Shown here: in pieces, positions 1,403 through 53,206 of the stretch
Layout of the letters: each line of letters opens with the position of its first letter
Numbering within the stretch: position 1 is the first letter of the stretch
Assembly: GCA_963663495.1 (NCBI GenBank)
Contig: OY760427.1
Coordinates: 62,080-126,079, forward strand
DNA length: 64,000 nucleotides
Direction of reading: 5' to 3'
Source: Rhodothermales bacterium
GTDB lineage: Bacteria > Bacteroidota > Rhodothermia > Rhodothermales > Bin80
Translations under genes and position numbers: made by a program
The notes under the pieces: model-generated
What the model saw: only the letters and a program-made list of their open reading frames with translations
Databases searched by the model: none
Told to the model about the DNA's origin: nothing

Positions 1403-1937
1403 TGAAACTTGATTCTGCATCGCAACCATCCTTGGCACCGAAACTGCGTTCCGATGCGAGCGGCACGGTGTGACGCTGCAGAGCAGCGTCTGCCCGATGC
1501 ATGAGGTCTCCCGCCCTGCTGAAAAGATCAAGCCCCTTCAGATGGATAAGCCTGGCCGCATTCACATCCCTGTCTAGAACAGGTCCACACCGCTGGCTAC
1601 GATACGAACGAACACTAGGCGTAATCTTGCGAGCGGGCATACCGCCGCAGCTACTATACCGTTGCGCCGTGTACTGCGGACTCATTTTCTTGCCTCCGGC
1701 GCTCTCAGGCTTGTAGGAAAGTTGTTGCATGACCGTAGCCGGAGACTGTTCGAGCATCGTACGGTTCAACCCACGCTTACGGGAACCGCACCGGGCAGTC
1801 ATGCCATTAAGATTCAAAGTGTATAGTGATCGCGCGTTCATTTCTGCTATCAAGGGCGTATATCCAGATGAATACTCAGGTATGTAGTGCCCCCGCATAG
1901 CCACAATATACGGTGGTTCAGGGGCTGCACGGATCAT
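1383..1937 (-). pseudogene. degenerate TnpB (IS605 OrfB-like) C-terminal remnant
   Basis: RGLNRTMLEQSPATVMQQLSYKPESAGGKKM...YTAQRYSSCGG...CGPVLDRDVNAARLI parallels the GLNRGILRTGWGQLEQMLGYK...YTSQRCSVCGH...DHADLNAAANI block of the intact TnpB at 16043. The N-terminal half is absent and the zinc-finger Cys residues are partly lost. Confidence 0.55.
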
Positions 1938-2027
1938 TTACTTATTCCTTCCATTACTGCCCGGTGCATGGACAGGCTGCCACGCATTTTTGAACTTTCC
2001 CGGTAAGCAGATCCTTCCAATCCGGCC

Positions 2028-3434: not shown

Positions 3435-5407
3435 TTGATGCTTCCGCAGAGGAGCTTCGATCGCTGCACAAGGCCTTGGAGCTACCTCGCGCGATTGAAG
3501 AGCGGATGCTGCGTCTGATCCGGCAGAACCGCATCAGCAAGTGGTTCAGTGGTTACGGGCAGGAAGCCATCAGCGTAGGATGTACATGGGCGCTGCACCC
3601 CGACGACACCATTCTGCCGCTGCATCGCAACGTAGGTGTCTGGACTACGCGGGGGGTGCCGCTGGAGCCGCTTTTTCGGCAACTGATGGGCAAGGTCGGG
3701 GGCTTTACCAGGGGCAGGGATCGCACCTTCCATTTTGGCATCCCGGACAAGCACATCGTTGGCATGATATCGCATTTGGGCGCCATGCTACCTGTGGCGT
3801 GCGGCATTGCGTTGGCCGCCCTTTTGCAGGGCAAGGACGCCGTCACGCTGGTTTTCTGCGGTGACGGGGCGACGCGGGAAGGAGACTTTCATGAGGCCCT
3901 CAGCCTTGCCGCGTTGTGGAGGCTGCCGGTGATATTCGTAGTAGAAAACAATGGCTACGGGCTGTCTACACCTGCAGATGCTGCGGTGCCTGTCAAGGAT
4001 ATCGCAGATGCTTCGACCGGTTACGGGATGCCCGGTGCGGTAGTGGATGGCAACGACCTAGGGCAGGTAATCAGCGCCGTCACGCGCGCGGCGCGCCGCG
4101 CGCGTGACGGGAAGGGCCCGTCGCTCCTGGAAATGAAGACTTTCCGCATGCGCGGCCACGAAGAGGCTTCAGGCACATGGTATGTACCTGAGGAGTTGAT
4201 GGCAGCATGGGCGCGGAAGGATCCGCTTGACCGATTCGTCAAGACTGCGGTAGAGTTCGGCGCGATTACGGAGGATGAGGTGCGACAGGTGCGGAAAGAG
4301 CTTGCTGCAGCCGTAGAGTCGACGTCAGAAGCTGCGCTTCGGGCCCCGGTGCCCGAGAGCACTGCCAGTCAAGAGCGTGAAGCAGTGTATGCGCCGGCGC
4401 GCGTCAATCACATGCAGCCCGTGGGTAAGCTTGAATCCAAGCGCTATGTGGATGCTATCAGCGATGCACTCCGCCAAGCGATGGAGGCTAACGAAAAAGT
4501 GCTCATCATGGGGCAGGACATCGCAAAGTATGGTGGGGTTTTCAAGGTTACGGAAGGCTTTTTGGACATGTTCGGGCCTGACCGAGTACGAGACACGCCT
4601 ATCGTCGAAAGTGCGGCCGTGGGCGCTGCAGTGGGGTTGGCGCTGGACGGAATGTGCCCGATAGTTGAGATGCAGTACGCGGACTTTATTGCCTGCGGAT
4701 TCAACCAGATCGTCAACAACCTGGCAACAACGCACTACCGCTGGGGGGCCTCGCTGGCAGTCACCATCCGTGCACCCTACGGGGGATACATCGCGGCTGG
4801 GCCGTTTCATTCGCAGTGCAAGGAAGCATGGTTTTGCCATGTGCCAGGGCTCAAGGTGATAGCCCCTGCCACGCCGCGTGATGCCAAAGGATTGCTGCTG
4901 TCGGCGATTGCAGATCCCAATCCGGTTCTGTTTTTCGAGCATAAGCACCTGTACAGGTCCGTGCGTGCAGACATCCCCGCGGCCCCCTACCACATCCCCT
5001 TGGGCAAGGCGCGGGTGGCACGAAAAGGGGTTGATGCATCCATAATCACGTACGGTCTGGGTGTCCATTGGGCGATGGAGGAAGCGGAGTGGCAGGAGTC
5101 ACATAACGGCATTAGGCTTGAGGTGGTAGACCTGCGGTCGCTGGTGCCGTGGGACCGGGAAACGGTGCGGGCCTCTGTGGCGCGGACCAGCCGCATGCTG
5201 GTGTTGCACGAAGCCACGCTGACGTGCGGTTTCGGGGCGGAAGTGGTGGCCTGGATGTCAGCGGAGGCATTCCATTTGCTGGATGCACCGCCGATGCGTG
5301 TGGCGGCAGAAGACCTGCCTGTGCCGGCATGCAAAACGCTGGAGCGCGATGTGTTTGCCGCTAAGGGGCGGTTACGGGCAGCCGTTGATACCATGATATC
5401 CTATTGA
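3431..5407 (+). CDS. 2-oxoacid dehydrogenase E1 component, fused alpha/beta subunits
   Basis: 658 aa. The N-terminal half is E1-alpha-like (GDGATREGDFHEALSLAALWRLPVIFVVENNGYG). The C-terminal half is transketolase-like E1-beta (DTPIVESAAVGAAVGLALDG). Its ATG overlaps the upstream stop (ATGA at 3431-3434). Confidence 0.9.
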   Translation: MIDASAEELRSLHKALELPRAIEERMLRLIRQNRISKWFSGYGQEAISVGCTWALHPDDTILPLHRNVGVWTTRGVPLEPLFRQLMGKVGGFTRGRDRTFHFGIPDKHIVGMISHLGAMLPVACGIALAALLQGKDAVTLVFCGDGATREGDFHEALSLAALWRLPVIFVVENNGYGLSTPADAAVPVKDIADASTGYGMPGAVVDGNDLGQVISAVTRAARRARDGKGPSLLEMKTFRMRGHEEASGTWYVPEELMAAWARKDPLDRFVKTAVEFGAITEDEVRQVRKELAAAVESTSEAALRAPVPESTASQEREAVYAPARVNHMQPVGKLESKRYVDAISDALRQAMEANEKVLIMGQDIAKYGGVFKVTEGFLDMFGPDRVRDTPIVESAAVGAAVGLALDGMCPIVEMQYADFIACGFNQIVNNLATTHYRWGASLAVTIRAPYGGYIAAGPFHSQCKEAWFCHVPGLKVIAPATPRDAKGLLLSAIADPNPVLFFEHKHLYRSVRADIPAAPYHIPLGKARVARKGVDASIITYGLGVHWAMEEAEWQESHNGIRLEVVDLRSLVPWDRETVRASVARTSRMLVLHEATLTCGFGAEVVAWMSAEAFHLLDAPPMRVAAEDLPVPACKTLERDVFAAKGRLRAAVDTMISY

Positions 5408-5476
5408 TTATCGCGCTGCATCATTGGTGTCGGTGGGGGGTACAATTCGGCAAACGCAATTGAGTACGTCTTAGCG

Positions 5477-5947
5477 ATGGAAATGCCTGCCGTGGGCCAA
5501 GCCGCCCCGCCTTTTGAGGCGCCTACCCAAGGGCGCGCCACCGTAGATCTGTCCCAGTATCGTGGACAAAAGGTGGCGTTATACTTTTATCCGCGAGACA
5601 ACACGCCCGGCTGCACCAGGCAGGCGGGCAACCTGCGGGACAATTGTGCGGAGCTTGCGGCCCATGATATCGCGGTCGTCGGTGTCTCTACAGACTGCGT
5701 AGTATCGCACGAAAAGTTCGCCGCGCGGCACGCATTGCCGTTCCCGTTGGTCGCCGATCCCGAGAAGGTAATCGTTCAGGCTTACGGGGTGATAGGCGAG
5801 AAGAAGATGTTCGGACGCACGTTCCTGGGCGTTACGCGGACGACATTTCTCATTGATGAGGACGGGATAATTGTACGTATCATTCGGCGACCGAAGACTG
5901 GAGATCATGCCGCGGAGATCCTCCGCGGTTTTGGTATCACCGGGTAG
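5477..5947 (+). CDS. bcp: thiol peroxidase / peroxiredoxin Bcp
   Basis: YFYPRDNTPGCTRQA peroxidatic-Cys motif; about 156 aa, the AhpC/TSA size. Confidence 0.9.
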   Translation: MEMPAVGQAAPPFEAPTQGRATVDLSQYRGQKVALYFYPRDNTPGCTRQAGNLRDNCAELAAHDIAVVGVSTDCVVSHEKFAARHALPFPLVADPEKVIVQAYGVIGEKKMFGRTFLGVTRTTFLIDEDGIIVRIIRRPKTGDHAAEILRGFGITG

Positions 5948-5960
5948 GCTTGAGTGCTGT

Positions 5961-7445
5961 ATGCCGGCTGCCAAGTACGAACCTGTTATCGGACTTGAGG
6001 TCCACTGCCAACTGCGAACGGCATCCAAGGCATTCAGTCCGGACTCTGCCTCATTTGGAGCACGTCCCAACAGCAACGTGGATGTAATCAGCCTCGGATA
6101 CCCGGGCACGCTGCCGATTCCGAACATCCGTGTTGTGGAGTATGCGGTGCGAATGGGGTTTGCAACCCATTGCACCGTGGCGGATCGCAGCATCCTGGCG
6201 CGGAAGCATTACTTTTATCCTGATTTGCCGAAGGGCTATCAGATTTCGCAGTTCGAGCATCCCCTGTGTGCCAACGGGTATGTAGATATTGAGGCGGACG
6301 GCGCGCGTAGGATCGGTGTGACGCGGATTCATATTGAGGAAGATGCGGGCAAGAGCCTGCACGACCAGGATCCTGAATGCACCCTGTTGGACTTCAATCG
6401 CTGCGGAGTGCCGTTGATTGAGATAGTGTCGGAGCCGGACCTCCGCTCGGGCCGTGAAGCATATCTGTACATGCAGAAGATCCGCCAACTGGTGCGATAC
6501 CTTGAGATATGCGATGGCAATATGGAGGAGGGGTCCTTGCGGTGCGACGCCAATGTCTCTATCCGGCCTGTAGGATGTGCACAGCTTGGTGTTAAGACAG
6601 AGATCAAGAACATGAACTCGTTCCGGTATGTAGAGCGTGCCATTGATCACGAAATTGCGCGCCAGCAGGCGCTCGTAAGCCGTGGAGAGGCGGTGGTCCA
6701 CCAGACTCTGCTGTGGGATGCGGGCAGCGGCACGACTCGTCCGATGCGCTCCAAGGAGGATGCGCACGATTATCGGTATTTCCCTGACCCTGATTTACCG
6801 CCCGTTGTGGTAACCGCATCGCTCCGCTCGTCGGTTCTCGCATCGCAGCCGGAGCTGCCGGATGCGCGCTGCAACAGGTTTGAGGAGCAGTTGGGCTTGC
6901 CTCCCTATGACGCAGCCGTGCTGACAGAAGAGCGTTCTGTAGCAGATTATTTTGAAGCTGCCTTGGAAGTGCTGCGAGACGGGAGTCCCGGGGGCAACCT
7001 GCATAGCCAGGCGAAGGCTGTTTCCAACGTGGTGATGACGGATGTCCTGCGGGCAGCAAAGGAATATGCAGGATCGTTGGACGAGTTTCCGGTTCCTCCG
7101 GCCCGTCTCGGAGCTTTGGTTGCTCTGCGCCTGAGTGGTGCAATCAGCTCGACAGGTATGCGGGAGGTGTTCGGTTGCCTGCAGGAAGAAGATGGTGAAC
7201 CCGAGGAGATAGCTCGCGCACAAAAGCTGCTGCAGGTGTCTGACGATAGTCTGCTTCTCCCCGTGGTTGAGGAAGTGCTTGTATCTTTTCCTGCGCAGGT
7301 TGCTACCTTTCGGGAGGGGAAGACAAGTGTGCTCGGTTTCTTTATCGGACAGGTCATGCGGAGGTTTGGGGGCTCGGCTGATCCGGTTCGTGTCCGCAGG
7401 CTGCTTTTAGAACAAATCGGTGGCGAAAATGACACGTTACGGTAG
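5961..7445 (+). CDS. gatB: Asp-tRNA(Asn)/Glu-tRNA(Gln) amidotransferase subunit B
   Basis: MPAAKYEPVIGLEVHCQL... is the canonical GatB N-terminus. The start is placed at the ATG at 5961, because the longer ORF from 5871 overlaps bcp. Confidence 0.93.
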   Translation: MPAAKYEPVIGLEVHCQLRTASKAFSPDSASFGARPNSNVDVISLGYPGTLPIPNIRVVEYAVRMGFATHCTVADRSILARKHYFYPDLPKGYQISQFEHPLCANGYVDIEADGARRIGVTRIHIEEDAGKSLHDQDPECTLLDFNRCGVPLIEIVSEPDLRSGREAYLYMQKIRQLVRYLEICDGNMEEGSLRCDANVSIRPVGCAQLGVKTEIKNMNSFRYVERAIDHEIARQQALVSRGEAVVHQTLLWDAGSGTTRPMRSKEDAHDYRYFPDPDLPPVVVTASLRSSVLASQPELPDARCNRFEEQLGLPPYDAAVLTEERSVADYFEAALEVLRDGSPGGNLHSQAKAVSNVVMTDVLRAAKEYAGSLDEFPVPPARLGALVALRLSGAISSTGMREVFGCLQEEDGEPEEIARAQKLLQVSDDSLLLPVVEEVLVSFPAQVATFREGKTSVLGFFIGQVMRRFGGSADPVRVRRLLLEQIGGENDTLR

Positions 7446-7473
7446 CACGTTGCCTTGTTGGCTCTACCGCAAA

Positions 7474-8817
7474 ATGCCGGGGCTATGGGTGTTGGCTTTC
7501 CTTCCAGGTCTCGCCTGTGCGCAGGAGGAGGAGACTTCCGCGGACCCGACCGTTAAGGCGCTCTTCTCCGGCATGTTGACGGTGAACCCGGAGGTGGATC
7601 CTACTCCGGACTACCGCGGGTTCGAGGTTCTAGTTGCCGTTGACCGGGGCGGCGAGCCCGATACGCTTGGATTCGCGGTGACGGACAGCGCGGGGGCATT
7701 CTCCATGGACATTGTCGCACCGCAGCGGGGTATATATGCGTTGATTATCAGCCGCCGCGGGCAAATCCTGAAGGTGGACGAGATGGCGATTGCGGAGGCG
7801 GATACGGCTTCTCTTCGTGCGCAGTTTCCTGTGGGCCAACGCCGCTTGCGCGTCCGGTCACAGGAAAACGCGGCGTGGATGGCGTACCAGAATGCGCGGG
7901 CTCAGCATAGCCAGAGCATCCTGGATCTTGTCAGATCAGGGGAATACACCAACGAAGGCGCCGGCAGGCATGTGGAACTGAGCAGCAGCCTGCTTTGGAA
8001 CATGCAGGGAACCTTTCCCGGAACGATGGGCGCTGAGATGTCCGCAGCCGAGTCAGTGCTCATGATCGCAGGGTGGAGTGATTCTCTTGTCGTTGCACGA
8101 GCGGAGGATATCCCTTCGGACAATGTGCGGTACGCCGAAATTGTGCGTGCGGTGCGTCAGTCGACCGCCCGCCTGGAAGGCCAGGAAGAGGCTATTGCGT
8201 ATCTTGAAGAAACTGTGGGAAGCTTGGAGCAAGAGGAGCTACGTGCGGAGGTGCATGCAGAATTCGTTGCTGCGCACATGGACAGTCTGAACTTTGATGA
8301 AGCCCGCAACGTGGCGCAGCTGATGCAGACAACCTACTCCGGCACCTTATGGGCGACATGGGCAGCAAATGCGCTGTACGAGCTGGAATACTTGATGCCC
8401 GGTATGCCAGCTCCGTCCTTCGCTGTCCGTACGACGACTGGAGATTCCGTACGACTGGCAGATTTGCGAGGGAAGCCGGTTGTGCTTGAGTTCTATCAAC
8501 CCAGGGATGCTGTATATCAGCGGGAGTTCGGAGGCCGGAATAGCCTGCTGACCGAAACGGATGGCATCCATGTGGTTTCGGTGTCGCTTGAGCCGGACTC
8601 ATTGCTCAACGATGCTTTGTTTGACGAGCGTGAACCACGCGGCATCTTTGTTTATGCCGCGAGCGGGTACCAAGCGGAGATTGCGCGCAGTTACAATGTG
8701 AATTACCTTCCCGTACGTTTCTTGATTGGCAGCGATGGTAAGCTCGTGGCCAAGTACGAGGGGGGAGCGATGGCAGTACTGCGAGAGCGGGCACTCTCGC
8801 TCGCTAGCGACCTATAA
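7474..8817 (+). CDS. secreted TlpA/thioredoxin-fold domain protein lacking the CXXC motif
   Basis: Signal peptide MPGLWVLAFLPGLACAQ. The C-terminal block APSFAVRTTTGDSVRLADLRGKPVVLEFYQPRDAVYQ...NYLPVRFLIGSDGKLV has a TlpA-like fold. No Cys occupies the WCxxC position. Confidence 0.65.
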   Translation: MPGLWVLAFLPGLACAQEEETSADPTVKALFSGMLTVNPEVDPTPDYRGFEVLVAVDRGGEPDTLGFAVTDSAGAFSMDIVAPQRGIYALIISRRGQILKVDEMAIAEADTASLRAQFPVGQRRLRVRSQENAAWMAYQNARAQHSQSILDLVRSGEYTNEGAGRHVELSSSLLWNMQGTFPGTMGAEMSAAESVLMIAGWSDSLVVARAEDIPSDNVRYAEIVRAVRQSTARLEGQEEAIAYLEETVGSLEQEELRAEVHAEFVAAHMDSLNFDEARNVAQLMQTTYSGTLWATWAANALYELEYLMPGMPAPSFAVRTTTGDSVRLADLRGKPVVLEFYQPRDAVYQREFGGRNSLLTETDGIHVVSVSLEPDSLLNDALFDEREPRGIFVYAASGYQAEIARSYNVNYLPVRFLIGSDGKLVAKYEGGAMAVLRERALSLASDL

Positions 8818-8840
8818 TTCAATCTATAACGCAGGATCTG

Positions 8841-9587
8841 ATGCTTATTGCAGGCAACTGGAAAATGAATACTGCAGCGGGAGAGGCCCGGGACCTGGCC
8901 CGGGCTGTAGCCTCATCCGTAAGGGATATGGAGACGGTAGATGTGGCGGTATGCCCTCCATTCGTACACCTTGTTGAGGTCAGCGCCGAGCTACGTGGTT
9001 CTCATGTGCGGCTAGGTGCGCAGAATATGCACAGCGCCAACGCTGGAGCCTTTACCGGAGAGGTGTCTGCCCGAATGCTGAAGAGTGTTGGTTGTCATTA
9101 TGTAATTATTGGGCACAGCGAGCGCCGCCAATATTTTGGCGAGACGGACATTGGCGTAAATGTGAAGGTGCGGCAGGCGTTGGACCACGGTCTGTTGCCG
9201 ATTGTGTGCGTTGGAGAGCTATTGGAGGAGCGGCAGGCCGGGCGGGAGAAAGAGGTCGTGTCGGAGCAGGTTCGGGGTGCACTCGCAGGGATGGATGCCA
9301 TTCAGCCCGGTAGCCTCGTGGTTGCCTACGAACCCGTCTGGGCTATCGGGACGGGAGAGACGGCTACCCCTGCCACTGCCCAGGATATGCACAGGTTTGT
9401 AAGATCCCTTCTTCGCGAGGTACAGGGAGCGGACTCTGCACTTATCCTTTACGGCGGTAGCATGAAGCCGGGCAATGCCAGGGCGCTGCTGCAGCAGCCG
9501 GACATTGATGGCGGATTGATAGGCGGTGCTAGTTTGCGGGCGGACACGTTCGCTGCCATCGTGGCTGCAGCGGCAGAAGAGGCTTAA
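8841..9587 (+). CDS. tpiA: triosephosphate isomerase
   Basis: IAGNWKMN...IIGHSERR...AYEPVWAIGTG...YGGS motifs. Confidence 0.95.
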   Translation: MLIAGNWKMNTAAGEARDLARAVASSVRDMETVDVAVCPPFVHLVEVSAELRGSHVRLGAQNMHSANAGAFTGEVSARMLKSVGCHYVIIGHSERRQYFGETDIGVNVKVRQALDHGLLPIVCVGELLEERQAGREKEVVSEQVRGALAGMDAIQPGSLVVAYEPVWAIGTGETATPATAQDMHRFVRSLLREVQGADSALILYGGSMKPGNARALLQQPDIDGGLIGGASLRADTFAAIVAAAAEEA

Positions 9588-9853
9588 TCTGCGTCGGCGC
9601 TGGCAGACTCCGTTTTTTCTGCCTTTTCTTTGGCTTCCGGCTTCTTGGGTTCCTTGGCTTTCTCCGGATCGGGTTTTGATACGTAGTCAGTCTGGTAGAA
9701 CCCGGTGCCCTTGAATATCAGCCCTGTGCCGCCGGTGATTACGCGATGTACGTCTTGGCCTGTTGTTGGGCATTGATCCAAGGGGGCGGATGTAATGCGC
9801 TGCCGGATTTCGAAGGTCGAACCGTCAGCGCGTCGATAAACGTAGGTGGGCAT
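9584..9853 (-). CDS. FmdB-family zinc-ribbon-like small protein (Cys-depleted variant) with a K/E-rich tail
   Basis: MPTYVYRRADGSTFEI...QCPTTGQDVHRVI...FKGTGFYQTDY follows the FmdB/CxxC_CxxC_SSSS pattern, but only 1 of the 4 Cys residues is present. Confidence 0.55.
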   Translation of the reverse strand: MPTYVYRRADGSTFEIRQRITSAPLDQCPTTGQDVHRVITGGTGLIFKGTGFYQTDYVSKPDPEKAKEPKKPEAKEKAEKTESASADAD

Positions 9854-9895
9854 GGTGTGCAGTTGGGGAGACGGCGCTATAAGGCTGTAGTCCGC

Positions 9896-11125
9896 CTAGT
9901 GTTCCTTTGCGAAATCCACCGGATCCCAATCGTGTTGGACACCGACGAGCGAGGCGTACACCACTTCGGCAATCGCGGGGCGAATGATGGTATACGCATA
10001 ATTCCGCCGTGTGGGGTAGACTCGGTTGGTGAGGATGACAACCCAAGTGTCGGAATCGGGATCAATCCAAATGGATGTGCCTGTAAATCCTGTGTGGCCG
10101 TAGCTATGGGGGCCGAACAGCTGCCCGGCGCTTGAAGGCTTGTCGAGTGACTTGGTATCCCAGCCCAGCGCACGGGTAGATAGGGATTTGTCCTGCACAG
10201 CTGTAAATGTCTGAATAGTGGCGGCGTCAAGGAATCGCTCGCCTTCAAGGATGCCTTCCTGCGACATCATCCGGGCGAATCTGGACAGGTCATATGCGGT
10301 GGAAAAAAGGCCCGCGTGCCCTGATACGCCACCTAGGATCCACGCGTTCTCATCGTGCACTTCACCTTGGACGAGTCTGTTCCGGAAGGACATATCCCAT
10401 TCAGTAGGCACAACATCAGGGTCTCGTTTACCGGTGCCGCGAAAACCCGTGGCGTACATGCCCAGCGGTTCGAAGATGTGCTCCCTGGTAAAATCGTCAA
10501 AGGCCATCCCTGCGATTTTCTCAATCACCAATGCGAGCGTAATCATGCCAAAATCGCTGTAGGTATACTTATCACCGGGTAGTGAGCGCAAGGGGCCCGT
10601 AAAGATAGAGTCCAGTATCGCCGCCCTAGTTCGTTTGCCTTCCCGATAGAACGTGATATAGGCTTCCAGTCCACTGGTATGGGTCAGGAGGTGACGGATG
10701 GTGATATCCCTTTTGTCCGGTACATCAAACGCATCCAAGTAAGTACTGACAGAAGCGTTGAGATCCAGCTTGTCGTTTTCATACAACAGCATCGCGGCGG
10801 CGGTCGTGGCAATAACTTTGGTTAGAGAGGCCAGCCCGAACGGTGTATCTTCAGTCACCGGGCGCGGGGAGTCGTAGGTAAAGGTACCGTATCCATCCAG
10901 TACCTCCACTGTCCCTCTACGTCCGGCGGCGACGGCCGCTGCCGGGAACCAGCGCGCGTCTACGGCCATGTTTATGAGGTCGTCAACGGTTTCAAGGCTT
11001 GCGCCCGCGAAACGTGATGATAAGAATTCGTCTCGCACGCTCTCTACGGACCGTATTTGGCAGACGCTGCTTTCGGCAGCGGCGCAGGCGAGTACGATCA
11101 ATGTGAAGCGATAGCATGTCATCAT
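9896..11125 (-). CDS. serine hydrolase, class C beta-lactamase/PBP-like family
   Basis: 409 aa with a signal peptide. ASLTKV (SxxK), YSDFG and HTGFTGT motifs. Confidence 0.85.
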   Translation of the reverse strand: MMTCYRFTLIVLACAAAESSVCQIRSVESVRDEFLSSRFAGASLETVDDLINMAVDARWFPAAAVAAGRRGTVEVLDGYGTFTYDSPRPVTEDTPFGLASLTKVIATTAAAMLLYENDKLDLNASVSTYLDAFDVPDKRDITIRHLLTHTSGLEAYITFYREGKRTRAAILDSIFTGPLRSLPGDKYTYSDFGMITLALVIEKIAGMAFDDFTREHIFEPLGMYATGFRGTGKRDPDVVPTEWDMSFRNRLVQGEVHDENAWILGGVSGHAGLFSTAYDLSRFARMMSQEGILEGERFLDAATIQTFTAVQDKSLSTRALGWDTKSLDKPSSAGQLFGPHSYGHTGFTGTSIWIDPDSDTWVVILTNRVYPTRRNYAYTIIRPAIAEVVYASLVGVQHDWDPVDFAKEH

Positions 11126-11185
11126 ATGGCACCGTTGATACGATTATGCGTAACAGCAGCAAAGTTAATGGAAACCGAACTAGGG

Positions 11186-11551
11186 ATGCCTAAAATTACA
11201 GTAGAGGGATTCGATTCAATTGATGTTGCCGAGGGGAAGCGATTAGTGGTTGGGTTGGCAGAGGCGGGGGTTGATATCGGGCACCGCTGCGGTGGGTATG
11301 CGCGGTGTACTACATGCCGCGTGCGTGTGTACGAGGGAGAGCCTGATGTAATGACGATGGCTGAGCTTGAAAAGCTTCGTGGCGCCGGCCACCTGGGCAA
11401 GATTCGCCTCGCGTGCCAGATAATTGTTGAGGGGGATATGACGGTGGAGCCGCTTATGCGTGTATCCTCAATGGGTTGGTCGGATCCCGGCCCTCTTCCA
11501 GAGGAGACGGTTACTCCAGAACCGGAATGGACCCCGGTACCGGAGGTTTAG
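11186..11551 (+). CDS. 2Fe-2S ferredoxin-like protein
   Basis: MPKITVEG...HRCGGYARCTTCRV...LACQ Cys pattern. The start is moved to 11186 to avoid overlap with the divergent hydrolase gene. Confidence 0.7.
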   Translation: MPKITVEGFDSIDVAEGKRLVVGLAEAGVDIGHRCGGYARCTTCRVRVYEGEPDVMTMAELEKLRGAGHLGKIRLACQIIVEGDMTVEPLMRVSSMGWSDPGPLPEETVTPEPEWTPVPEV

Positions 11552-11564
11552 GGGTACCGGAAGT

Positions 11565-12671
11565 TCAGGTGGAGCGCACTGCCAGCTGCCCGCACGCGGC
11601 GTCAATGTCCGTGCCGCGGCTTTGCCTTACGGTGACGGTAACTCTCTGGCGTACCAATTCGCGGATGAAAGCATTGAGCTTATCGTCTGGCGTGCGCGTA
11701 TAAGGGAGTCCCTTGACGGGGTTGTACTGAATCAGGTTGACTTTGCTATGGATACGATGGCAGAGTGCTGCAAGGGCTTTGGCATCGTCCAAGGTATCGT
11801 TGAAGTCCCGAAACAGGCAATACTCAAAGGTGACAGGATTCCGGGTTATGGCGGTGTAGTGGACGAGGGCATCCCGCAGAGCGGTCAGGCTTGTGGCCCG
11901 GGACCGTACAGCGGGCATGATGGCATCCCGCTTATCCTGGAACGGGGCATGAAGTGAGACCGCGAGGTTTACGCGCGGACTGTCGTCTGCCAACTCCCGA
12001 ATTCTGCGAGCAAGTCCCACGGTGGAAACTGTGATGCGTCTCAAGGCTAACCCGAACGAATCGGGCCGGTTCAGCAGGTCCAAGCTCAGGACCACGTTTC
12101 GGTAGTTGAGCAGGGGTTCGCCCATGCCCATATACACGACGTTGGTTACCCGTTGTTTGTAGCGCTTAAGGGCAAGGTCGTTCAGGATACGTACCTGGTC
12201 GACTATGGCGCCGGCAGTCAGGTTTTCGCTGAAGCCCATGAGGCCCGTTGCACAGAAGGAGCATGCCATGGCGCACCCCACCTGGCTGGATACGCAGATC
12301 GTCACACGCCGGACATTGCCCGCGTCGTCAAAATCAGGGATTAGCACCGACTCCACCGTGCGGCCGGAGGGCAGCGTGAGTAGCATCTTCACCGTACCGT
12401 CGGTGGAGGTTCGGGTGACAGAGCAGGTCAGTATTCCGATACATGCGGCGCGGCGCAACCGATGGCGAAAGCGCAGTGGGAGGTTGTTCATTTCCTCAAA
12501 GGACGAGGCGCCTCGTCCGTGGACCCACTGAAGCAACTGCCTTCCACGATACCTTTCCTCGCCGAGTGAAATGGCCAGCGCTTCCAAATCTGACTGGCCA
12601 AGCCCCTTCAAGTCCACGAGGTTTCGGTGCTGCGCTGCAGTAATCTCTTTCGTTTCGTTGCTTCGCTTCAT
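11565..12671 (-). CDS. rlmN: 23S rRNA/tRNA (adenine-C2)-methyltransferase, radical SAM
   Basis: CVSSQVGCAMACSFCATG radical-SAM cluster motif and the C-terminal DIDAACGQL motif. Confidence 0.9.
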   Translation of the reverse strand: MKRSNETKEITAAQHRNLVDLKGLGQSDLEALAISLGEERYRGRQLLQWVHGRGASSFEEMNNLPLRFRHRLRRAACIGILTCSVTRTSTDGTVKMLLTLPSGRTVESVLIPDFDDAGNVRRVTICVSSQVGCAMACSFCATGLMGFSENLTAGAIVDQVRILNDLALKRYKQRVTNVVYMGMGEPLLNYRNVVLSLDLLNRPDSFGLALRRITVSTVGLARRIRELADDSPRVNLAVSLHAPFQDKRDAIMPAVRSRATSLTALRDALVHYTAITRNPVTFEYCLFRDFNDTLDDAKALAALCHRIHSKVNLIQYNPVKGLPYTRTPDDKLNAFIRELVRQRVTVTVRQSRGTDIDAACGQLAVRST

Positions 12672-12685: not shown

Positions 12686-13135
12686 ATGAGGTCATCGCTC
12701 CTTTCAAACCGCTCTGTTATGCATAAATCGTTATTCCTTTCCGTGTGTCTTTCTCTTCCCATGGCAGTGCCCACTTTGGCACAAAAGCCGGCAAACATTC
12801 TGGAAGGCAGTTGGAGGATGGTGTCTCAGCGGGAGGTGTACCCTGACACCGTCAATGTTACTGTCAACCCTCCGCCGTCTATCAAGATTCTAAACTCCAC
12901 TCACTTTTCCTGGGGGTATCAGTCGGATGATGGTGAAGAGGTGATAGCTGGTGGGGGGCGCTATACATTTGAGGGGGATAGCCTCTATACGGAGTTTCTG
13001 GAATACCATGTTTCTCCGGTTTATGTAGGACTTGCGCTGGAGTTTTCCGCCAGCATAGTAGGCGATTTGTGGTATCACGTCGGCGAGTTTCCGAGTGGTT
13101 TTCGCTTGGAAGAAGTGTGGAGGCGCATTGAGTAG
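12686..13135 (+). CDS. small secreted lipocalin-like protein
   Basis: Signal peptide followed by GSWRMVSQ...STHFSWGY...GGGRYTFEGDSLYTE, a beta-rich pattern. The function is not recognised. Confidence 0.5.
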   Translation: MRSSLLSNRSVMHKSLFLSVCLSLPMAVPTLAQKPANILEGSWRMVSQREVYPDTVNVTVNPPPSIKILNSTHFSWGYQSDDGEEVIAGGGRYTFEGDSLYTEFLEYHVSPVYVGLALEFSASIVGDLWYHVGEFPSGFRLEEVWRRIE

Positions 13136-13236
13136 TACAATCGGTTTTGTATTCCACGATAGGGTGCTTATACCTTGCGGGTGAATAGCCCGCTCGTTTC
13201 TCCAGTTGGTAGCGGTCATGGGTATGCATGGAGACA

Positions 13237-13503
13237 ACAGCACACGCTTCAGCAAAGATCAGAAGCTCTCTGCGCCATTGGTGTGGACCTGCTCACGAAC
13301 GTATTCGCCAACAGAGTGACGTACGTAGGCGTGGTTGTTGCGGCCCCGGTATGCTGGCGAGCCATCCGTATAGACCTCGGTGTCTTCCGAGACATGGGTA
13401 TCCACAAACGCATTGAGCGTTTGCCCGTCTGTATTTTCTACTACCTGGGCAGAAATGCTATCGGTGACACGATCACGGACTCCTACAACGGCTTTCTTAC
13501 CGT
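13237..13503 (-). pseudogene. internal fragment of an IS1595-family transposase gene
   Basis: A near-identical reverse-complement copy of 14230-14500. The antisense ORFs 13175..13516 and 14146..14352 share ...GIHKRIERL..YYLGRNAIGDTITDSYNGFLT. Confidence 0.8.
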
Positions 13504-13587
13504 ATCCGTCCGGTGAAGTACATTATAAACGAGGGCATTTACTCTCTCAATTAGAGTAAGTTAGACCGCGATCCGAAGGTTAAATAG

Positions 13588-14659
13588 GGGAGTTATATAG
13601 CTGACTTCCCACGCGTTAAATTGTTGAAATAATTGCAGTTTGGTCGCGATTAGCGGGAACCGACTATACCGAAAATGGGCACCATCCCGTGATAGATTGA
13701 TGACCTAACTAAATGCCTTCAAAGAACAGAAACAACAGAAACACCAATGGCCCTGGACGGGCTGATCGTGAAGGAGTGTCCTTGATCAAGCTAACCAAAA
13801 TGTTTCCAGACGACCCATCAGCCGAAGCATGGTTCGCAATGAAGCGTTGGGGGCGACACTCCTGTTTGCCCGCACTGTGCGTCTAAGAACGTACAGTCTG
13901 GCGCCAAACATCCTAGCATGCCTTATCGTTGCCGTAGTTGCCGTAAACGATTCAGTGTCCGCATAGGGACTGTAATGCAGGACTCCAAACTGGGATACCA
14001 GGTATGGGCATTAGCCATTTACATCATGACTACCAGTATCAAGGGCGTATCCAGCATGAAGCTGCATCGTGACCTTGGCATAACCCAGACGACAGCGTGG
14101 CATCTGGCCCACCGTATTCGACAATCATGGAATGGAGAGCATGCACTATTTGCCGGTCCGGTAGAGGTTGACGAAGCCTACTTCGGTGGCAAGGAAAAGA
14201 ACAAGCACGCCAGCAAGAAGCTGAAAGCAGGCCGTGGGCCAGTAGGTAAGAAAGCCGTTGTAGGAGTCCGTGATCGTGTCACCAATAGCATTTCTGCCCA
14301 GGTAGTAGAAAACATAGACGGACAGACGCTCAATGCGTTTGTGGATACCCATGTCTCGGAAGACACCGAGGTCTATACGGATGGCACGTCAGCATACCGG
14401 GGCCGCAACAACCACGCCTACGTACGTCACTCTGTTGGCGAATACGTTCGTGAGCAGGTCCATACCAATGGCGTAGAGAGCTTCTGGTCTTTGCTGAAGC
14501 GTGGGTACTACGGAACGTACCACCACATGAGCAAGAAACACCTACAGCGGTACGTGAACGAATTTGCAGGGCGACACAATGCACGCGACTACGACACAGC
14601 GGAGCAAATGACAATAATTGCTCAAGGACTGGTCGGTAAACGGCTCATGTACAAATCCC
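13588..14659 (+). mobile_element. IS1595-family insertion sequence (about 1.07 kb)
   Basis: IRL is GGGAGTTATATAG. The candidate degenerate IRR is ...CATGTACAAATCCC, ending at 14659. It encodes an ISXO2-like DDE transposase. Confidence 0.6.
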
Positions 14660-14670
14660 TCATTTCATAG
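13918..14670 (+). CDS. IS1595-family (ISXO2-like DDE) transposase; the N-terminal zinc-ribbon exon is separated by an apparent 1-nt frameshift
   Basis: VEVDEAYFGGKEKNK...VYTDGTSAYRG...HTNGVESFWSLLKRGYYGTYHHMSKKHLQRYVNEFAGRHN. Upstream, MFPDDPSAEAWFAMKRWG (ATG at 13800) runs into the out-of-frame GDTPVCPHCASKNVQSGAKHPS at a G-run near 13850. Confidence 0.8.
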   Translation: MPYRCRSCRKRFSVRIGTVMQDSKLGYQVWALAIYIMTTSIKGVSSMKLHRDLGITQTTAWHLAHRIRQSWNGEHALFAGPVEVDEAYFGGKEKNKHASKKLKAGRGPVGKKAVVGVRDRVTNSISAQVVENIDGQTLNAFVDTHVSEDTEVYTDGTSAYRGRNNHAYVRHSVGEYVREQVHTNGVESFWSLLKRGYYGTYHHMSKKHLQRYVNEFAGRHNARDYDTAEQMTIIAQGLVGKRLMYKSLIS

Positions 14671-14742
14671 CCAAACGTAAGCGGTAACGTATCAAGCCAT
14701 CCGTACTCATGCGCATTCCGGGCATCGGTCAGCTACAATTGC

Positions 14743-14919
14743 TTGCTCGTGGACGGAGAACGGAGACGAACGGGCCGCGCAATACTGCGCCTGCAAGGCT
14801 TCCCCGACAGCTACGAGATTGACAGTCCGATAACGACCGTCAGACGGCTTACTGGCAACGCCGTACCCATTCCGGTGGTCAGGGCCGTTATGCGCCAGCT
14901 TTTCCATGTCTGTGCTTGA
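14743..14919 (+). pseudogene. C-terminal fragment of a DNA (cytosine-5) methyltransferase
   Basis: Hand translation gives ...GERRRTGRAILRLQGFPDSYEIDSPITTVRRLTGNAVPIPVVRAVMRQLF*. The RLQGFPD.Y and GNAVP motifs correspond to Dcm motifs IX-X. No N-terminal catalytic part is present. Confidence 0.55.
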
Positions 14920-15277
14920 TGGCCCGCGTCTCATGGGTTCGTCCGGTGCGCTTCGTGGCCCGTACCGGGGTCCGCCCAGTACTTCCGCATTGTCAAGAGC
15001 GTCCCGATATAAGCCAAGGAATCGGTCCTGAAGTTGATCGACTGTCGTGAAAACTGGATCGCAATGTATGCAGCCTCCTACTCTAAGCAGATATCCGCCA
15101 TGAAATCATTTCGGTATTCTGCCCCAATGGATTAGTGCTACTCTATAGCCTATGACACCATGAGCATAGATAAATCCCCGAAGCCCGGTAACAAGATTCA
15201 GGAAACGAAACGCCCCGGCCGCCCCGTAACAAACGACATTCTCAATATCCAACAATCCATCCCTACCATACCGGAAG

Positions 15278-15363
15278 AACTGGCGAAAGCCATCCTGTCC
15301 GCACCACCAAAGCACAAAAAGTAACGCCCGCGAAAACGCGTGGCACTCAGCCATATAACTCCC
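15278..15363 (-). repeat. solo outer left-end fragment of the tnpB unit
   Basis: ...AACTGGCGAAAGCCATCCTGTC.GCACCACCAAAGCACAA..GTAAC.CC.GCGAAAACGCGTGGCACTCAGCCATATAACTCCC matches 57100-57186 and the reverse complement of 15833-15925. Confidence 0.7.
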
Positions 15364-15832
15364 AAATGCATGCAGAGGAGCAGTCATTTCCGATACTTCG
15401 GAGAAAATATCAGAAGACCGGTGCGCCTCGGCGATCTCGGCGTCCGTCAATCCCTCAATGATCTGCATCGGTGCGGCAGCACGCATCGCCCGGTCAAGCG
15501 GGTCCCTTAGGAAAAGGCTACTATGTTCGTTTGTCCTCTGCACAGCGCGAGCCACCCACTCGCCGAACAGGCTGTCGCCGCATCGGAGATGATGATCAAG
15601 AAAGCTTAGCGGAGCGCCGACGGTGAAGGTGTGGAGCCAAAGCGACACCTTGGCCAGCTCTACCGCCATTGGGATCTTATCAACACCGTAGACGCACCGC
15701 TTGAGCACCATGCGACGGATAATGTGCTGATCGTCAAGCTGATCCGTATTGTATGCCCGGCCCTTGTCCTCCGCGTTACCAATGATCTTATTGCGGATAG
15801 CGTCAATCCTCTCTGCAAGCGGAGAAATATAT
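15364..15832 (-). pseudogene. internal fragment of a type IIG / PglX-like N6-adenine DNA methyltransferase
   Basis: YISPLAERIDAIRNKI...RRMVLKRCVYGVDKIPMAVELAKVSLWLHTFTVGAPLSFLDHHLRCGDSLFGEW. It is bounded on both sides by outward-facing tnpB-unit left ends. Confidence 0.6.
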
Positions 15833-17298
15833 GGGAGTTATATGGCTGAATGCCACGCGTTTTCGCAGGAGTTACTTATTGTGTTATTGTGCTTTGGTGG
15901 TGCAGACAGGATGGCTTTCGCCAGTTGTTCATAATCGGTTCCCGCTTTTCACGAAGAAACTGCAATTATTTCAAATAACCCAACACGTGGGTACGCATGG
16001 AATATAATTATCATATATTAGGGAGTTGTATATCACAGTGCCATGCCCGAAACGGTTAGTGCATACCGCAATATCACATACAGGCTGTTGCCCGGAAGTC
16101 GAAGTAACGCCAAGCAACTTGCTGGATTAGCGGGTGCGTGTAGGTTTGTGTGGAATGCCATCCTCGCAGAGCAGAGCGAGGCCTACAAGAAAGCGAAAGA
16201 GGCTGGAGAGAAGCCGCCCTCGGTAAGCTTCTACTCGCTGGGGAAGCGGTTCACGGCACTGCGCCGTACGGTCGAGTGGCTACCTGAATACTCCTTTGGT
16301 GTCGTTAGATACACATTGAAATATCAGGCGGACGCATGGAAGGCATTCTTCAAGGAAGGTAAGAGAAGACCGAGATTCCATTCCAGACGTGGTAGTACGC
16401 CTTCGTTCACGATCCCGGATAACGTAAGGGTTCGGGATGGCAAGCTGTATATCCCGAAAGTGGGATATATGGCGCTCCGCAGGCGGGGAGGCAACCCGTA
16501 CCCTGATGGTATACCCATCAAAGCCACTGTAAAGAAGAACGCCGGCAAATGGTATGCTGTCATCTGCTACAAGATTGAGGCACCTGTAATAGAGGATACC
16601 GGCAGTGCTGTAGGCATTGACCGTAATTGCGGGCAGATCGCTATGGTCTCCACAGAGGGCGATACAAGCATTATCAGACAACCGGATACCAAGCGTCTTG
16701 ATGCCAAGTTGAAGCGGCATCAGCGAAGACTGGCGAGACAGAAGAAAGGCTCCAACCGTCGTAACAGGCGGAAGCATAGAATCGCCCGCATACAGCGCAA
16801 GCGTGCTAACGTCCTCAAGAATGCGAACCACCAGGTAAGTCGCAGTATTGCCAATTGCTCCTCAACGGTGATACTGGAGGACCTAAAGATCAAAGCGATG
16901 ACACATTCAGCTAAGGGGACGATGGAGAGCTTTGGCACAAACGTCAGACAGAAGTCTGGCCTCAACCGTGGAATACTGCGAACAGGTTGGGGCCAGCTGG
17001 AACAGATGCTGGGCTATAAGTGCCGCAAGGTGATAAAGGTTACCGCTGCCTATACCAGTCAGCGGTGTTCTGTGTGTGGACACACAGAAGCGAGTAACCG
17101 TAAGACGCGGAGCAAATTCACGTGTATGTCCTGTGGACATGCGGATCATGCAGACCTGAATGCGGCTGCAAACATACTGGCCTCCGGGATTGGGGCTTCT
17201 GCACGGCGAGGGGCGTTCGGGTTACCGACCCCTATGACCCGTGAAATTGATACTAGTGCCTCACTGTGTACAGTTGGTCACTCACGTATATAATTCCC
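15833..17298 (+). mobile_element. tnpB unit copy 1 (intact): TIR-bounded 1.47-kb element carrying only tnpB
   Basis: Ends GGGAGTTATATGGCTGA... and ...TCACGTATATAATTCCC. The boundaries were defined by alignment with copy 2 (44700-57186). Confidence 0.8.
16043..17293 (+). CDS. tnpB: TnpB (IS605 OrfB-type RNA-guided nuclease), catalytic residues present
   Basis: 416 aa. RuvC-I is AVGIDRNCG, RuvC-II is VILEDLK and RuvC-III is HADHADLNAAANI. The zinc finger is CSVCGH...CMSCGH. Confidence 0.9.
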   Translation: MPETVSAYRNITYRLLPGSRSNAKQLAGLAGACRFVWNAILAEQSEAYKKAKEAGEKPPSVSFYSLGKRFTALRRTVEWLPEYSFGVVRYTLKYQADAWKAFFKEGKRRPRFHSRRGSTPSFTIPDNVRVRDGKLYIPKVGYMALRRRGGNPYPDGIPIKATVKKNAGKWYAVICYKIEAPVIEDTGSAVGIDRNCGQIAMVSTEGDTSIIRQPDTKRLDAKLKRHQRRLARQKKGSNRRNRRKHRIARIQRKRANVLKNANHQVSRSIANCSSTVILEDLKIKAMTHSAKGTMESFGTNVRQKSGLNRGILRTGWGQLEQMLGYKCRKVIKVTAAYTSQRCSVCGHTEASNRKTRSKFTCMSCGHADHADLNAAANILASGIGASARRGAFGLPTPMTREIDTSASLCTVGHSRI

Positions 17299-17314
17299 TT
17301 AAATAGGCTGGCGG
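17130..17314 (+). ncRNA. predicted omega (right-end) guide RNA of TnpB, scaffold plus flank-derived guide
   Basis: The call rests only on analogy with characterised TnpB elements, where the RNA overlaps the 3' end of tnpB and reads into the flank. The flank here is TTAAATAGGCTGGCGG. No conserved structure was verified. Confidence 0.3.
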
Positions 17315-18032
17315 TTGGGCGTGCAGGAGTCAAGTACCTGGCAGCGTGTTCGCAGACTAGTACACGGATCTATCTGATAGCCCGGGCTACCCGATAGGCC
17401 TCGAAACGGGTAATGCGAGTGTCGACCTTCCGGTGATATGAGGAAGACCGATGCGGTTTCGGCAAGAGTGCGATACAAGCACAGAGATCGACTCGCCGGG
17501 GTATTGGCGCTGGCACGCATGGAAGATCAGGGAAGCAGCAACACGGGAAGCCCTGTTGATGGTGGGCTCACCAACCGGAAGCTTGTAAGAGCCAGGCCGG
17601 GTCATCAGGGTGGCGGAGTGGTCCGTAGTACCGTTGATGCGGGGTAATGCCCGCGGAGGGAAGGGGCCGCAGGTGCGGAGCGGTGTGCAAAGAGGGAAGG
17701 GCTACGGTAAATGGTAACGTCTTCCAAACCGGTTAATGGTCAGGGACCTCAGCGACATCACATGCGAAAGTGAAGGAAGCCTACCCCGGGAAGCCGGGGT
17801 AGGTGTTAGTTGAGGCGTAAACAGGCTTAGCTGCGAGTTGTAGGGAATGTCGGGCAGGCGTTGGAGGGTGCTCACCTTCATTAGGCATTGCCTCTCATTT
17901 CAGATGGCTTTTCCGAGTGCGAGTTGCATGATCCGCCTGGAGAGCCCGGTGCGGGAAAACCGCACGCCGCCCGGAAACGTGCTCTACGGAGTAACGCGCC
18001 GCTCGCCGACTCTACGGACGGATACCTTTTAG

Positions 18033-42441: not shown

Positions 42442-42449
42442 GGGCGACG

Positions 42450-42833
<384 letters not shown>

Positions 42834-47165: not shown

Positions 47166-47168
47166 ATC

Positions 47169-48059: not shown

Positions 48060-48085
48060 CTCTTGCAGGGCAGGTTGCACCGCCG

Positions 48086-48981: not shown

Positions 48982-49029
48982 AGGATCACTTGTGGTATTT
49001 CTGGAGGGTTGCCGGTGCGGATTACAGCG

Positions 49030-53172: not shown

Positions 53173-53206
53173 CGAAACGCCGCCTACCGGTGGCGCCCAA
53201 TCCCCT

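What the first reader, a model, noticed from the sequence alone, without database searches (positions are those of the whole stretch)
13580..17306. 3.7-kb compound unit: IS1595 element + captured restriction-modification debris + tnpB unit, moved as one piece (TSD TTAAATAG)
TTAAATAG lies immediately outside the IS1595 left tip (13580-13587). The same 8-mer lies immediately outside the tnpB-unit right tip (17299-17306). The two tips are inverted repeats of each other.

The interval therefore behaves as one transposition unit that used the outer ends of two elements sharing TIRs. Neither the IS1595 element alone nor tnpB copy 1 alone has matching flanks.

The captured interior (14660-15832) holds only fragments: the C-terminus of a Dcm-type methyltransferase, a solo left-end repeat, and an internal piece of a PglX/type IIG-like methyltransferase. 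This independently supports the idea that the DDE machinery recognises the tnpB-unit ends.
Basis: seen in the sequence. Interest (0 to 1): 0.65.

Follow-up and report, generated by a model that had tools for sequence, protein, structure and literature searches.

The report
Composite transposon joining IS1595 and TnpB
Two related jumping genes, an IS1595-type insertion sequence and a small TnpB-carrying element with the same kind of ends, trapped 469 bp of a methylase gene between them and now move together as one 3.7-kb composite transposon; this is a well-known kind of event, here linking a cut-and-paste transposase to an RNA-guided nuclease gene.

Summary
TTAAATAG occurs only twice in the 64-kb window. 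Each copy abuts one outer tip of the interval 13588-17298, and the tips are imperfect inverted repeats (13 of 16).

The interpretation that the interval moved as one piece is supported by three lines:
- Short-read contigs from four public runs contain the uninterrupted site with a single TTAAATAG.
- The same IS1595-spacer-tnpB unit (98.4-98.7% identical, with an identical 469-bp spacer length and inner junctions) lies at another locus in an independent metagenome assembly, bounded at the same tips by a different octamer, ATATCATA.
- A chimeric ORF that crosses the spacer/IS1595 junction exists in at least six sequence variants on the window's own 5.9-Mb chromosome.

The IS1595 element is complete (13588-15363). 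The Dcm fragment is its own cargo remnant, and the "solo left-end repeat" is its own right terminal repeat. Only the 469-bp type IIG methylase fragment (15364-15832) was captured.

The window copy's transposase has a +1 frameshift, whereas two related IS1595 copies, one inside the other compound copy, have intact 286-aa genes.

This is a classical composite transposon with an unusual pair of arms: a new member of a known kind, of moderate interest.

The parts
13580..13587 (.). Left copy of the 8-bp target-site duplication, TTAAATAG
   Evidence: It is one of only two occurrences in the window.
13588..15363 (+). Complete IS1595-family element (1776 bp), the left arm of the composite. Left TIR 13588-13609, right TIR 15342-15363.
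   Evidence: The TIR pair is I6. A solo copy in L073 (reverse complement, 2437-4187) aligns continuously with window 13616-15365 at 96.6%.
13800..14670 (+). IS1595 transposase gene, broken in this copy by one extra G in the G-run 13845-13849. Two related copies encode an intact 286-aa protein.
   Evidence: Pfam DDE_Tnp_IS1595, E 5e-38. The intact L073 version also has Zn_ribbon_IS1595. All Logan contigs lack the extra base (table 4).
14683..14919 (+). C-terminal remnant of a C5-cytosine DNA methylase. It lies inside the IS1595 element as a passenger remnant and is not captured spacer.
   Evidence: Pfam DNA_methylase, E 2e-10, model positions 273-323 of 324. It is also present in the solo IS1595 copy of L073.
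15364..15832 (-). Captured spacer: a 469-bp internal fragment of a type IIG / Eco57I-MmeI-type N6-adenine methylase gene.
   Evidence: Homologues at 82-83% identity carry PF20473 or PF07669. There is a weak Eco57I Pfam hit. It forms a 469-bp unitig at 6-17 times unique depth. All three compound copies have a 469-bp spacer, 99.6% identical.
15833..17298 (+). Complete TIR-bounded tnpB unit (1466 bp), the right arm of the composite. Outer left tip 15833-15854, right tip 17277-17298.
   Evidence: tips. It is colinear with tnpB copy 2 (left tip 57186, right tip 44700), which has its own 8-bp duplication GTTATTTT.
16043..17293 (+). tnpB, an intact 416-aa ORF
   Evidence: Pfam HTH_OrfB_IS605, OrfB_IS605 and Cas12f1-like_TNB.
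17299..17306 (.). Right copy of the 8-bp target-site duplication, TTAAATAG
   Evidence: A 69-bp contig covers 17273-17341 with 0 differences at single-copy depth in runs X1 and X4.
13502..13579 (.). Left part of the repeated host DNA into which the composite inserted
   Evidence: Depth is about 1000-4000 against 27 for unique DNA in X1. Many different sequences lie before 13502.
17307..18032 (.). Right part of the host DNA. It is contiguous with 13502-13587 in uninterrupted copies.
   Evidence: Empty-site contigs. A weak group II intron D1-D4 match covers 17326-17511 (24.3 bits, below the gathering score).

Best explanation
The interval 13588-17298 is a composite (compound) transposon.

Origin (inferred): an autonomous IS1595-family element and a non-autonomous tnpB-only element with the same type of terminal inverted repeats inserted, in the same orientation, 469 bp apart in a type IIG methylase gene.

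Movement (shown): the IS1595 DDE transposase then paired the left tip of the IS1595 element with the right tip of the tnpB unit instead of each element's own partner tip. It moved the whole 3.7 kb and made an 8-bp staggered cut at TTAAATAG in a repeated, possibly group II intron-related, sequence. What is shown is the exact boundaries, the duplication, the single-copy octamer in uninterrupted copies, a second insertion of the same unit with another octamer, and multi-copy status in this genome.

Also inferred:
- The transposase that did it was supplied in cis by a then-intact copy, or in trans. The window copy now carries a +1 frameshift.
- The chemistry is cut-and-paste. The inside-out rearrangement seen in L072 fits that.
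For: **Duplication and tips.**

**Empty site.** Contigs in X1-X4 match the left flank up to 13588 and continue CTGGCGTCGGTTGGGCGTGCAGGAGTCAAG. This is the right flank with a 3-nt difference, so the octamer is present once.

**Second insertion.**
- L073 (reverse complement) 4493-8140 equals window 13588-17253 at 98.4%, with left flank ATATCATA.
- L072 (reverse complement) 4968-8184 equals window 14073-17298 at 98.6%, with right flank ATATCATA.
- The two contigs share their left neighbourhood at 99.75% and the compound body at 99.2%, so they are two arrangements of one locus.

**Unit ancestry.**
- The spacer is exactly 469 bp in all three copies and 99.6% identical.
- The IS1595 bodies of compound copies are 98.7% alike, against 96.9-97.2% to a solo copy.

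**Copy number.**
- There are six 201-aa variants and one 170-aa frameshift variant of the ORF that crosses the spacer/IS1595-tip junction. Six of these seven lie on the 5,919,514-bp chromosome.
- Spacer unitig depth is 6-17 times that of the unique flank, and 0.8-1.1 times that of the 5' part of the IS1595 body (13758-14076).

**Ends from different elements can be paired.**
- tnpB copy 2 alone has an 8-bp duplication, GTTATTTT.
- In L072 a MITE-like right tip and the IS1595 left tip jointly attacked TTAGCATA inside the transposase gene. This inverted 485 bp and left an inverted 8-bp duplication.

**Transposase.** The Zn-ribbon plus DDE_Tnp_IS1595 protein is intact in the L073 compound copy.
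Against: - No short-read contig spanning the window's left junction was found at 97% likeness. Logan contigs drop low-depth paths between high-copy repeats, so this is absence of confirmation rather than contradiction.
- The two ATATCATA copies of the second insertion lie on two contigs, each rearranged on the other side. They do not lie on one intact molecule.
Their flanks are therefore untested here.
- The empty-site contigs differ from the window's right flank by 3 nt. Their depth relative to unique DNA varies between runs, so they are paralogous or other-strain copies and not necessarily the ancestral allele.
Confidence: 0.85

Rival explanations
1. A single long IS1595-type 'transporter' element carrying tnpB as passenger inserted once at TTAAATAG. 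The inner ends and the methylase fragment arrived later by nested insertions or rearrangement, so no pairing of ends from two elements was needed.
For: IS1595-family elements with passenger genes are common (earlier notes of this scan; ISNwi1+ group from memory). The inner ends are inverted repeats of each other (I2 and I3).
Against: - The inner ends face outward around the 469-bp fragment, so they are not a nested element.
- They coincide exactly with the boundaries of free-standing elements: the solo IS1595 in L073 ends at the same tip, and solo tnpB copy 2 starts at the same tip with its own duplication.
Confidence: 0.07
2. The two octamers are not a duplication made by one event. The host DNA is a multi-copy repeat that contains TTAAATAG. 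Separate insertions of IS1595 and of a tnpB unit at that hot spot in two repeat copies were then joined by recombination.
For: The host sequence is multi-copy, and each uninterrupted copy has the octamer.
Against: - Such a recombinant would carry host-repeat sequence between the two elements. Instead the interior is the same 469-bp methylase fragment, with the same junctions, found at an unrelated locus.
- The inner flanks are AAATGCAT and AAATATAT, not TTAAATAG.
Confidence: 0.03
3. Assembly artefact: the 3.7-kb arrangement was produced by mis-joining reads across high-copy repeats.
For: Every segment boundary is a high-copy repeat. The left junction was not seen in short-read contigs.
Against: - The right junction contig is present with 0 differences at single-copy depth in two runs.
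- A 516-bp contig spans both inner junctions.
- The same interior order is found in two contigs of an independent assembly.
- A mis-join would not produce a matching 8-mer exactly at both tips.
Confidence: 0.03

Closest known systems
Classical composite (compound) transposons such as Tn5, Tn9 and Tn10 (textbook knowledge)
   Same: - Two IS-type arms bracket captured DNA.
- The transposase uses the two outer ends.
- The family-typical target duplication lies at the outer ends only.
- Inner ends are competent for inside-out events, as seen in L072.
   Different: - The arms are not two copies of one IS. One is an autonomous IS1595-family element; the other is a non-autonomous tnpB-only element that shares only about 22-nt tips (13 of 16 between the outer tips).
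- The captured DNA is a non-functional 469-bp gene fragment, not a selectable gene.
IS1595 family, ISNwi1 / ISNwi1+ group with passenger genes (Siguier et al. 2009; ISfinder; recalled from memory and cited in earlier notes)
   Same: - The transposase has an N-terminal zinc ribbon and a DDE_Tnp_IS1595 domain.
- The target duplication is 8 bp.
- The ends begin GGGAnTTAT.
- The element exceeds 1.7 kb because non-transposase DNA follows the transposase gene.
   Different: The passenger here is only a methylase C-terminal remnant. In addition, the element is acting as one arm of a larger unit.
DDE-transposase-associated TnpB branches (DDE-1 to DDE-6) and solo TnpB flanked by matching ends (Altae-Tran et al. 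2023, PNAS, PMC10691335)
   Same: tnpB lies between inverted terminal repeats with its 3' end close to the transposon end. Solo tnpB units have ends like those of a transposase-encoding partner.
   Different: - That paper names IS630 for DDE-6, and IS1595 does not occur in its main text.
- Here transposase and tnpB are linked secondarily, by composite formation with inner ends still present, not inside one pair of ends.
- Placement of this TnpB in those branches was not tested.

Membership tests
Composite (compound) transposon | Two IS-type arms, each with its own recognisable ends, bracket a central segment. | tested here: met
   IS1595 13588-15363 has its own TIR pair. The tnpB unit 15833-17298 has its tips. 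The spacer is 15364-15832.
Composite (compound) transposon | A target duplication of the family's length lies at the outer ends and not at the inner ends. | tested here: met
   TTAAATAG lies at both outer tips. The inner flanks are AAATGCAT and AAATATAT.
Composite (compound) transposon | The uninterrupted target carries one copy of the duplicated sequence. | tested here: met
   Contigs in four runs read GGTTAAATAGG followed by CTGGCGTCGGTTGGGCGTGCAGG. These are paralogous or other-strain copies of the host repeat.
Composite (compound) transposon | The same unit is found at other sites, ending at the same tips, with a different duplication. | tested here: met
   ATATCATA lies at the left tip in L073 and at the right tip in L072, which are two arrangements of one locus. 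It was not seen on one unrearranged molecule. At least six junction copies are on the window's own chromosome, but their flanks could not be read.
IS1595 family | Transposase with an N-terminal zinc ribbon and a DDE_Tnp_IS1595 (ISXO2-like) catalytic domain. | tested here: met
   PF12762, E 5e-38. PF12760 plus PF12762 in the intact 286-aa version.
IS1595 family | 8-bp target-site duplication. | tested here: met
   TTAAATAG, GTTATTTT and ATATCATA; CCTGCTAT for a 170-bp MITE; and dozens of relatives.
IS1595 family | Terminal inverted repeats of the ISNwi1-group type (ggnnatTAT, recalled from ISfinder). | tested here: inconclusive
   The tips GGGAGTTAT and GGGAATTAT fit the recalled consensus.
IS200/IS605-type TnpB element | No TIRs, no target duplication, subterminal hairpins, and a Y1 TnpA partner. 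| tested here: not met
   The tnpB unit has TIRs and 8-bp duplications. The linked transposase is a DDE enzyme.
DDE-associated TnpB branches (Altae-Tran 2023) | Phylogenetic placement of the TnpB within one of the branches DDE-1 to DDE-6. | not tested
   No tree was built against that paper's data set. Only the architecture (inverted ends, tnpB 3' end close to the end) agrees.

The most novel reading that the evidence does not exclude
The composite is a nascent autonomous DDE-plus-TnpB transposon. By fusing an IS1595 element to a tnpB-only hitch-hiker it puts transposase and RNA-guided nuclease on one mobile unit.

The version with an intact transposase (as in L073) would be proliferating as such, with at least six copies in this genome. 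Loss of the inner ends would then yield the single-TIR-pair DDE-TnpB architecture described in 2023. On this reading these copies are a caught-in-the-act intermediate for how TnpB changes transposase partners, with the guide RNA reading the duplicated octamer plus flank.
Probability: 0.2. Interest if true: 0.6.

Novelty: new member of a known kind. Interest (0 to 1): 0.38.

Why it matters
- It gives direct sequence-level evidence that an IS1595-family DDE transposase accepts the ends of the tnpB-only elements as substrates, because one such end served as the right end of a unit that made a canonical 8-bp duplication.
- It shows a simple route, composite formation, by which TnpB can become physically linked to a new class of transposase.
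- It explains why fragments of restriction-modification genes are multi-copy in this sponge-symbiont genome.
- For annotation, it warns that the 'methylase fragments' here are transposon cargo and not remains of a local defence locus.

Tried and rejected
- **Exact-protein look-ups.** Look-ups of window ORFs (TnpB, the 250-aa transposase ORF, the 368-aa ORF at 11565-12671, the 201-aa chimeric ORF) returned nothing. Own-genome places are withheld.
- **Genome-contig scan with TnpB.** The window's genome is not in that collection; the best relative is 77% identical. The 71 loci gave many solo tnpB units with 8-bp duplications but no second clean composite.
- **Metagenome-contig scan** for the IS1595-tip/spacer junction gave 0 hits.
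- **Look-up of the neighbouring BNR/sortilin-domain gene** returned only the same contig.
- **Joining the two ATATCATA flanks** gave no informative ORF across the junction.
- **Rejected: the Dcm fragment and the 'solo left-end repeat' as captured DNA.** They are part of the IS1595 element.
- **Rejected: recombination between hot-spot insertions, and misassembly.** See the rival explanations.
Full report
**Observation**

The octamer TTAAATAG is at 13580-13587 and 17299-17306 and nowhere else on either strand of the 64-kb window (0.6 expected by chance). The left copy abuts GGGAGTTATATAGCTGA. The right copy abuts the reverse complement of GGGAATTATATACGTGA. The tip motif has 7 matches in the window against 0.1 expected.

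A blind scan for 8-bp direct repeats that flank inverted repeats recovered 13588-17298, with 13 of 16 tip matches. The other two pairs it returned in the window were by-products of an inverted and a tandem repeat.

- **IS1595 element, 13588-15363 (1776 bp).** It is complete. Its left repeat (13588-13609) pairs with a right repeat at 15342-15363 (86% complementary). A solo copy in a related contig (L073 reverse complement, 2437-4187) aligns continuously with window 13616-15365, up to the same tip.
  - The Dcm-type C-terminal fragment (14683-14919; PF00145, E 2e-10) is therefore a passenger remnant inside the IS.
- **Transposase.** It matches DDE_Tnp_IS1595 (E 5e-38). In the window copy one extra G in the run 13845-13849 breaks the frame after 18 codons. 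Two related copies encode an intact 286-aa protein with Zn_ribbon_IS1595 plus the DDE domain. All short-read contigs lack the extra base (table 4).
- **Captured DNA, 15364-15832 (469 bp, minus strand).** This is the only captured segment. It is an internal piece of a type IIG / Eco57I-MmeI-type methylase. Homologues at 82-83% identity carry PF20473 or PF07669, and there are weak Eco57I hits.
- **tnpB unit, 15833-17298.** It is complete, with an intact 416-aa TnpB. It is colinear with tnpB copy 2 of the window, whose tips at 57186 and 44700 are flanked by their own 8-bp duplication, GTTATTTT.
- **Flanks of each arm.** IS1595 has TTAAATAG on the left and AAATGCAT on the right. The tnpB unit has AAATATAT on the left and TTAAATAG on the right. 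Neither arm has matching flanks by itself.

**Empty site**

Five public runs hold the unique left flank (12700-13587) laid for the search. Logan contigs of four of them were laid on the region.

- In all four runs a contig matches the left flank up to 13588 and then continues CTGGCGTCGGTTGGGCGTGCAGGAGTCAAG. This is the window's right flank from 17309 with a 3-nt difference. The uninterrupted sequence thus reads ...GGTTAAATAGGCTGGCGTCGGTTGGG..., with one copy of the octamer.
- Near-variants of the site were also seen, for example TTAATAGGCTGGCGT and TTATATAGGCTAGCGT.
- The host DNA is itself repeated. Depth is about 1000-4000 over 13504-13580 and 90-230 over 17309-17935, against 27 for unique DNA in X1. 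The empty-site contigs are therefore paralogous or other-strain copies.
- The right junction of the window (17273-17341) is present as a 69-bp contig with no differences at single-copy depth in X1 and X4.
- A contig across the left junction was not found. Contigs drop low-depth paths between high-copy repeats, so this is an unconfirmed point rather than a contradiction.

**The unit elsewhere**

An ORF on the minus strand (15106-15711, 201 aa) runs from the spacer through the IS1595 right tip. It can therefore exist only where the two are joined.

- Its 90% cluster has 32 members.
- Among the 15 listed members are six different 201-aa variants. A separate 170-aa frameshifted variant also crosses the same junction.
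- Six of these seven lie on a 5,919,514-bp contig, which is the window's chromosome. Those places are withheld, so their flanks could not be read.

Two variants lie on contigs of an independent ENA metagenome assembly, L072 and L073. Coordinates below are for their reverse complements.

- **L073.** Positions 4493-8140 equal window 13588-17253 at 98.4%. The left flank is ATATCATA|GGGAG. An IS256-type insert breaks the tnpB right end, and the sequence beyond it ends CCC|TTTCCAAA. Nine bases of tnpB are missing at the insert, so that side is probably recombinant.
- **L072.** Positions 4968-8184 equal window 14073-17298 at 98.6%. The right flank is CCC|ATATCATA.
- **Same locus.** The two contigs share their left neighbourhood at 99.75% and the compound body at 99.2%. 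They are two arrangements of one locus, and ATATCATA is the duplication of a second, independent insertion of the same unit. The chance of an identical octamer is about 1 in 65,000.

**Shared ancestry of the compound copies**

- The spacer is exactly 469 bp in all three copies and 99.6% identical.
- The compound IS1595 bodies are 98.7% alike, against 96.9-97.2% to the solo copy.
- The 5' halves of the compound tnpB units are 99.0% alike, against 95.6-98.3% to other tnpB units.
- Depth agrees. The spacer unitig is at 6-17 times the unique depth and 0.8-1.1 times the depth of the 5' part of the IS1595 body (13758-14076). One 516-bp contig spans both inner junctions.

**Mechanism**

These features are those of a classical composite transposon.

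1. Two elements with the same kind of ends inserted in direct orientation 469 bp apart in a methylase gene (inferred).
2. The IS1595 transposase then synapsed the IS1595 left tip with the tnpB unit's right tip and moved the whole unit, making the family's 8-bp duplication (shown by boundaries, duplication, empty site and recurrence).

L072 shows independently that this enzyme pairs tips of different elements. The first 485 bp of the compound are inverted between a MITE-like right tip and the IS1595 left tip. An inverted 8-bp duplication of an internal target (TATGCTAA ... TTAGCATA) lies at the two new joints, and the DNA formerly between the two tips is lost. This is the expected product of inside-out intramolecular cut-and-paste transposition.

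The L073 compound copy carries an intact transposase, so the unit can be autonomous. The window copy is now defective and would depend on transposase supplied in trans.

**Rivals**

- A single cargo-carrying IS with later nested insertions is disfavoured. The inner ends face outward and coincide with the boundaries of free-standing IS1595 and tnpB elements.
- Recombination between separate insertions at an octamer hot spot is excluded by the interior, which is identical to that of the copy at an unrelated locus.
- Misassembly is unlikely, given the right-junction and inner-junction contigs and the independent assembly.

**Comparison with what is known**

Composite transposons are textbook. IS1595-family elements with passenger DNA are established (ISNwi1+ group; from memory and earlier notes). 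TnpB between inverted repeats associated with DDE transposases, and solo TnpB units with matching ends, were described by Altae-Tran et al. 2023 (PMC10691335). That paper names IS630 for DDE-6, and IS1595 does not occur in its main text. Nine papers hold both 'TnpB' and 'IS1595', and none has both terms in its title or abstract; I did not open them.

The finding is thus a new member of a known kind. Its particular value is that one arm's TnpB-type end demonstrably served an IS1595-type event. It also suggests a route by which TnpB could acquire a DDE partner.

**Limits**

- The flanks of the copies on the window's own chromosome were not read.
- Earlier notes of this scan report further copies (one with TTTCCATA). 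I did not verify them.

Noticed in passing
window 45306-56339: tnpB copy 2 is split by an 11,024-bp segment (45311-56334). Two directly oriented IS1380-like (DDE_Tnp_1_4) copies bound the segment, and a 5-bp duplication TTGGT flanks it (45306-45310 and 56335-56339). This is a second composite transposon, of another IS family, in the same window.
   Followed up: partly
window 13243-13501: An inverted internal fragment of an IS1595 transposase gene (96% to 14245-14503) lies 86 bp upstream of the composite. It is cut off at 13501/13502 by the terminus of a very high-copy repeat.
   Followed up: partly
window 13502-13587 and 17307-18032: The host DNA of the insertion is itself a repeat family. The left 80 bp are at roughly 40-150 times unique depth in short-read contigs. 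Positions 17326-17511 give a sub-threshold Rfam match to group II intron D1-D4 (RF02005, 24.3 bits, E 1e-4). A 74%-identical stretch exists in a Paracoccaceae MAG (L012).
   Followed up: partly
L072 (reverse complement) 4303-4977: This is the product of an inside-out intramolecular transposition. A MITE-like right tip and the IS1595 left tip are joined to the two sides of an internal target, with an inverted 8-bp duplication (TATGCTAA / TTAGCATA). 485 bp are inverted and the intervening DNA is lost.
   Followed up: yes
L073 (reverse complement) 8141-12100: A 3.9-kb IS256-type (Transposase_mut) insert with two transposase ORFs lies in the tnpB right end. It has no duplication, and 9 bp of tnpB are missing. 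The flank beyond the tip (TTTCCAAA) does not match the left flank, suggesting recombination between IS256 copies in two different tnpB units.
   Followed up: partly
L072 (reverse complement) 2452-2621; L073 (reverse complement) 404-573: A 170-bp MITE with the same tip type (GGGAATTATATTGCTGAG ... CATATAACTCCC) and a clean 8-bp duplication, CCTGCTAT.
   Followed up: no
window 13579; L073 (reverse complement) 4484; window 57195: In element orientation, the base immediately 5' of the left duplication is G in all three insertions read here (GAAGG|TTAAATAG, CTGG|ATATCATA, CAATAG|AAAATAAC).
   Followed up: no
window 42449-42830: Bacterial RNase P RNA class A on the minus strand (260.6 bits).
   Followed up: no
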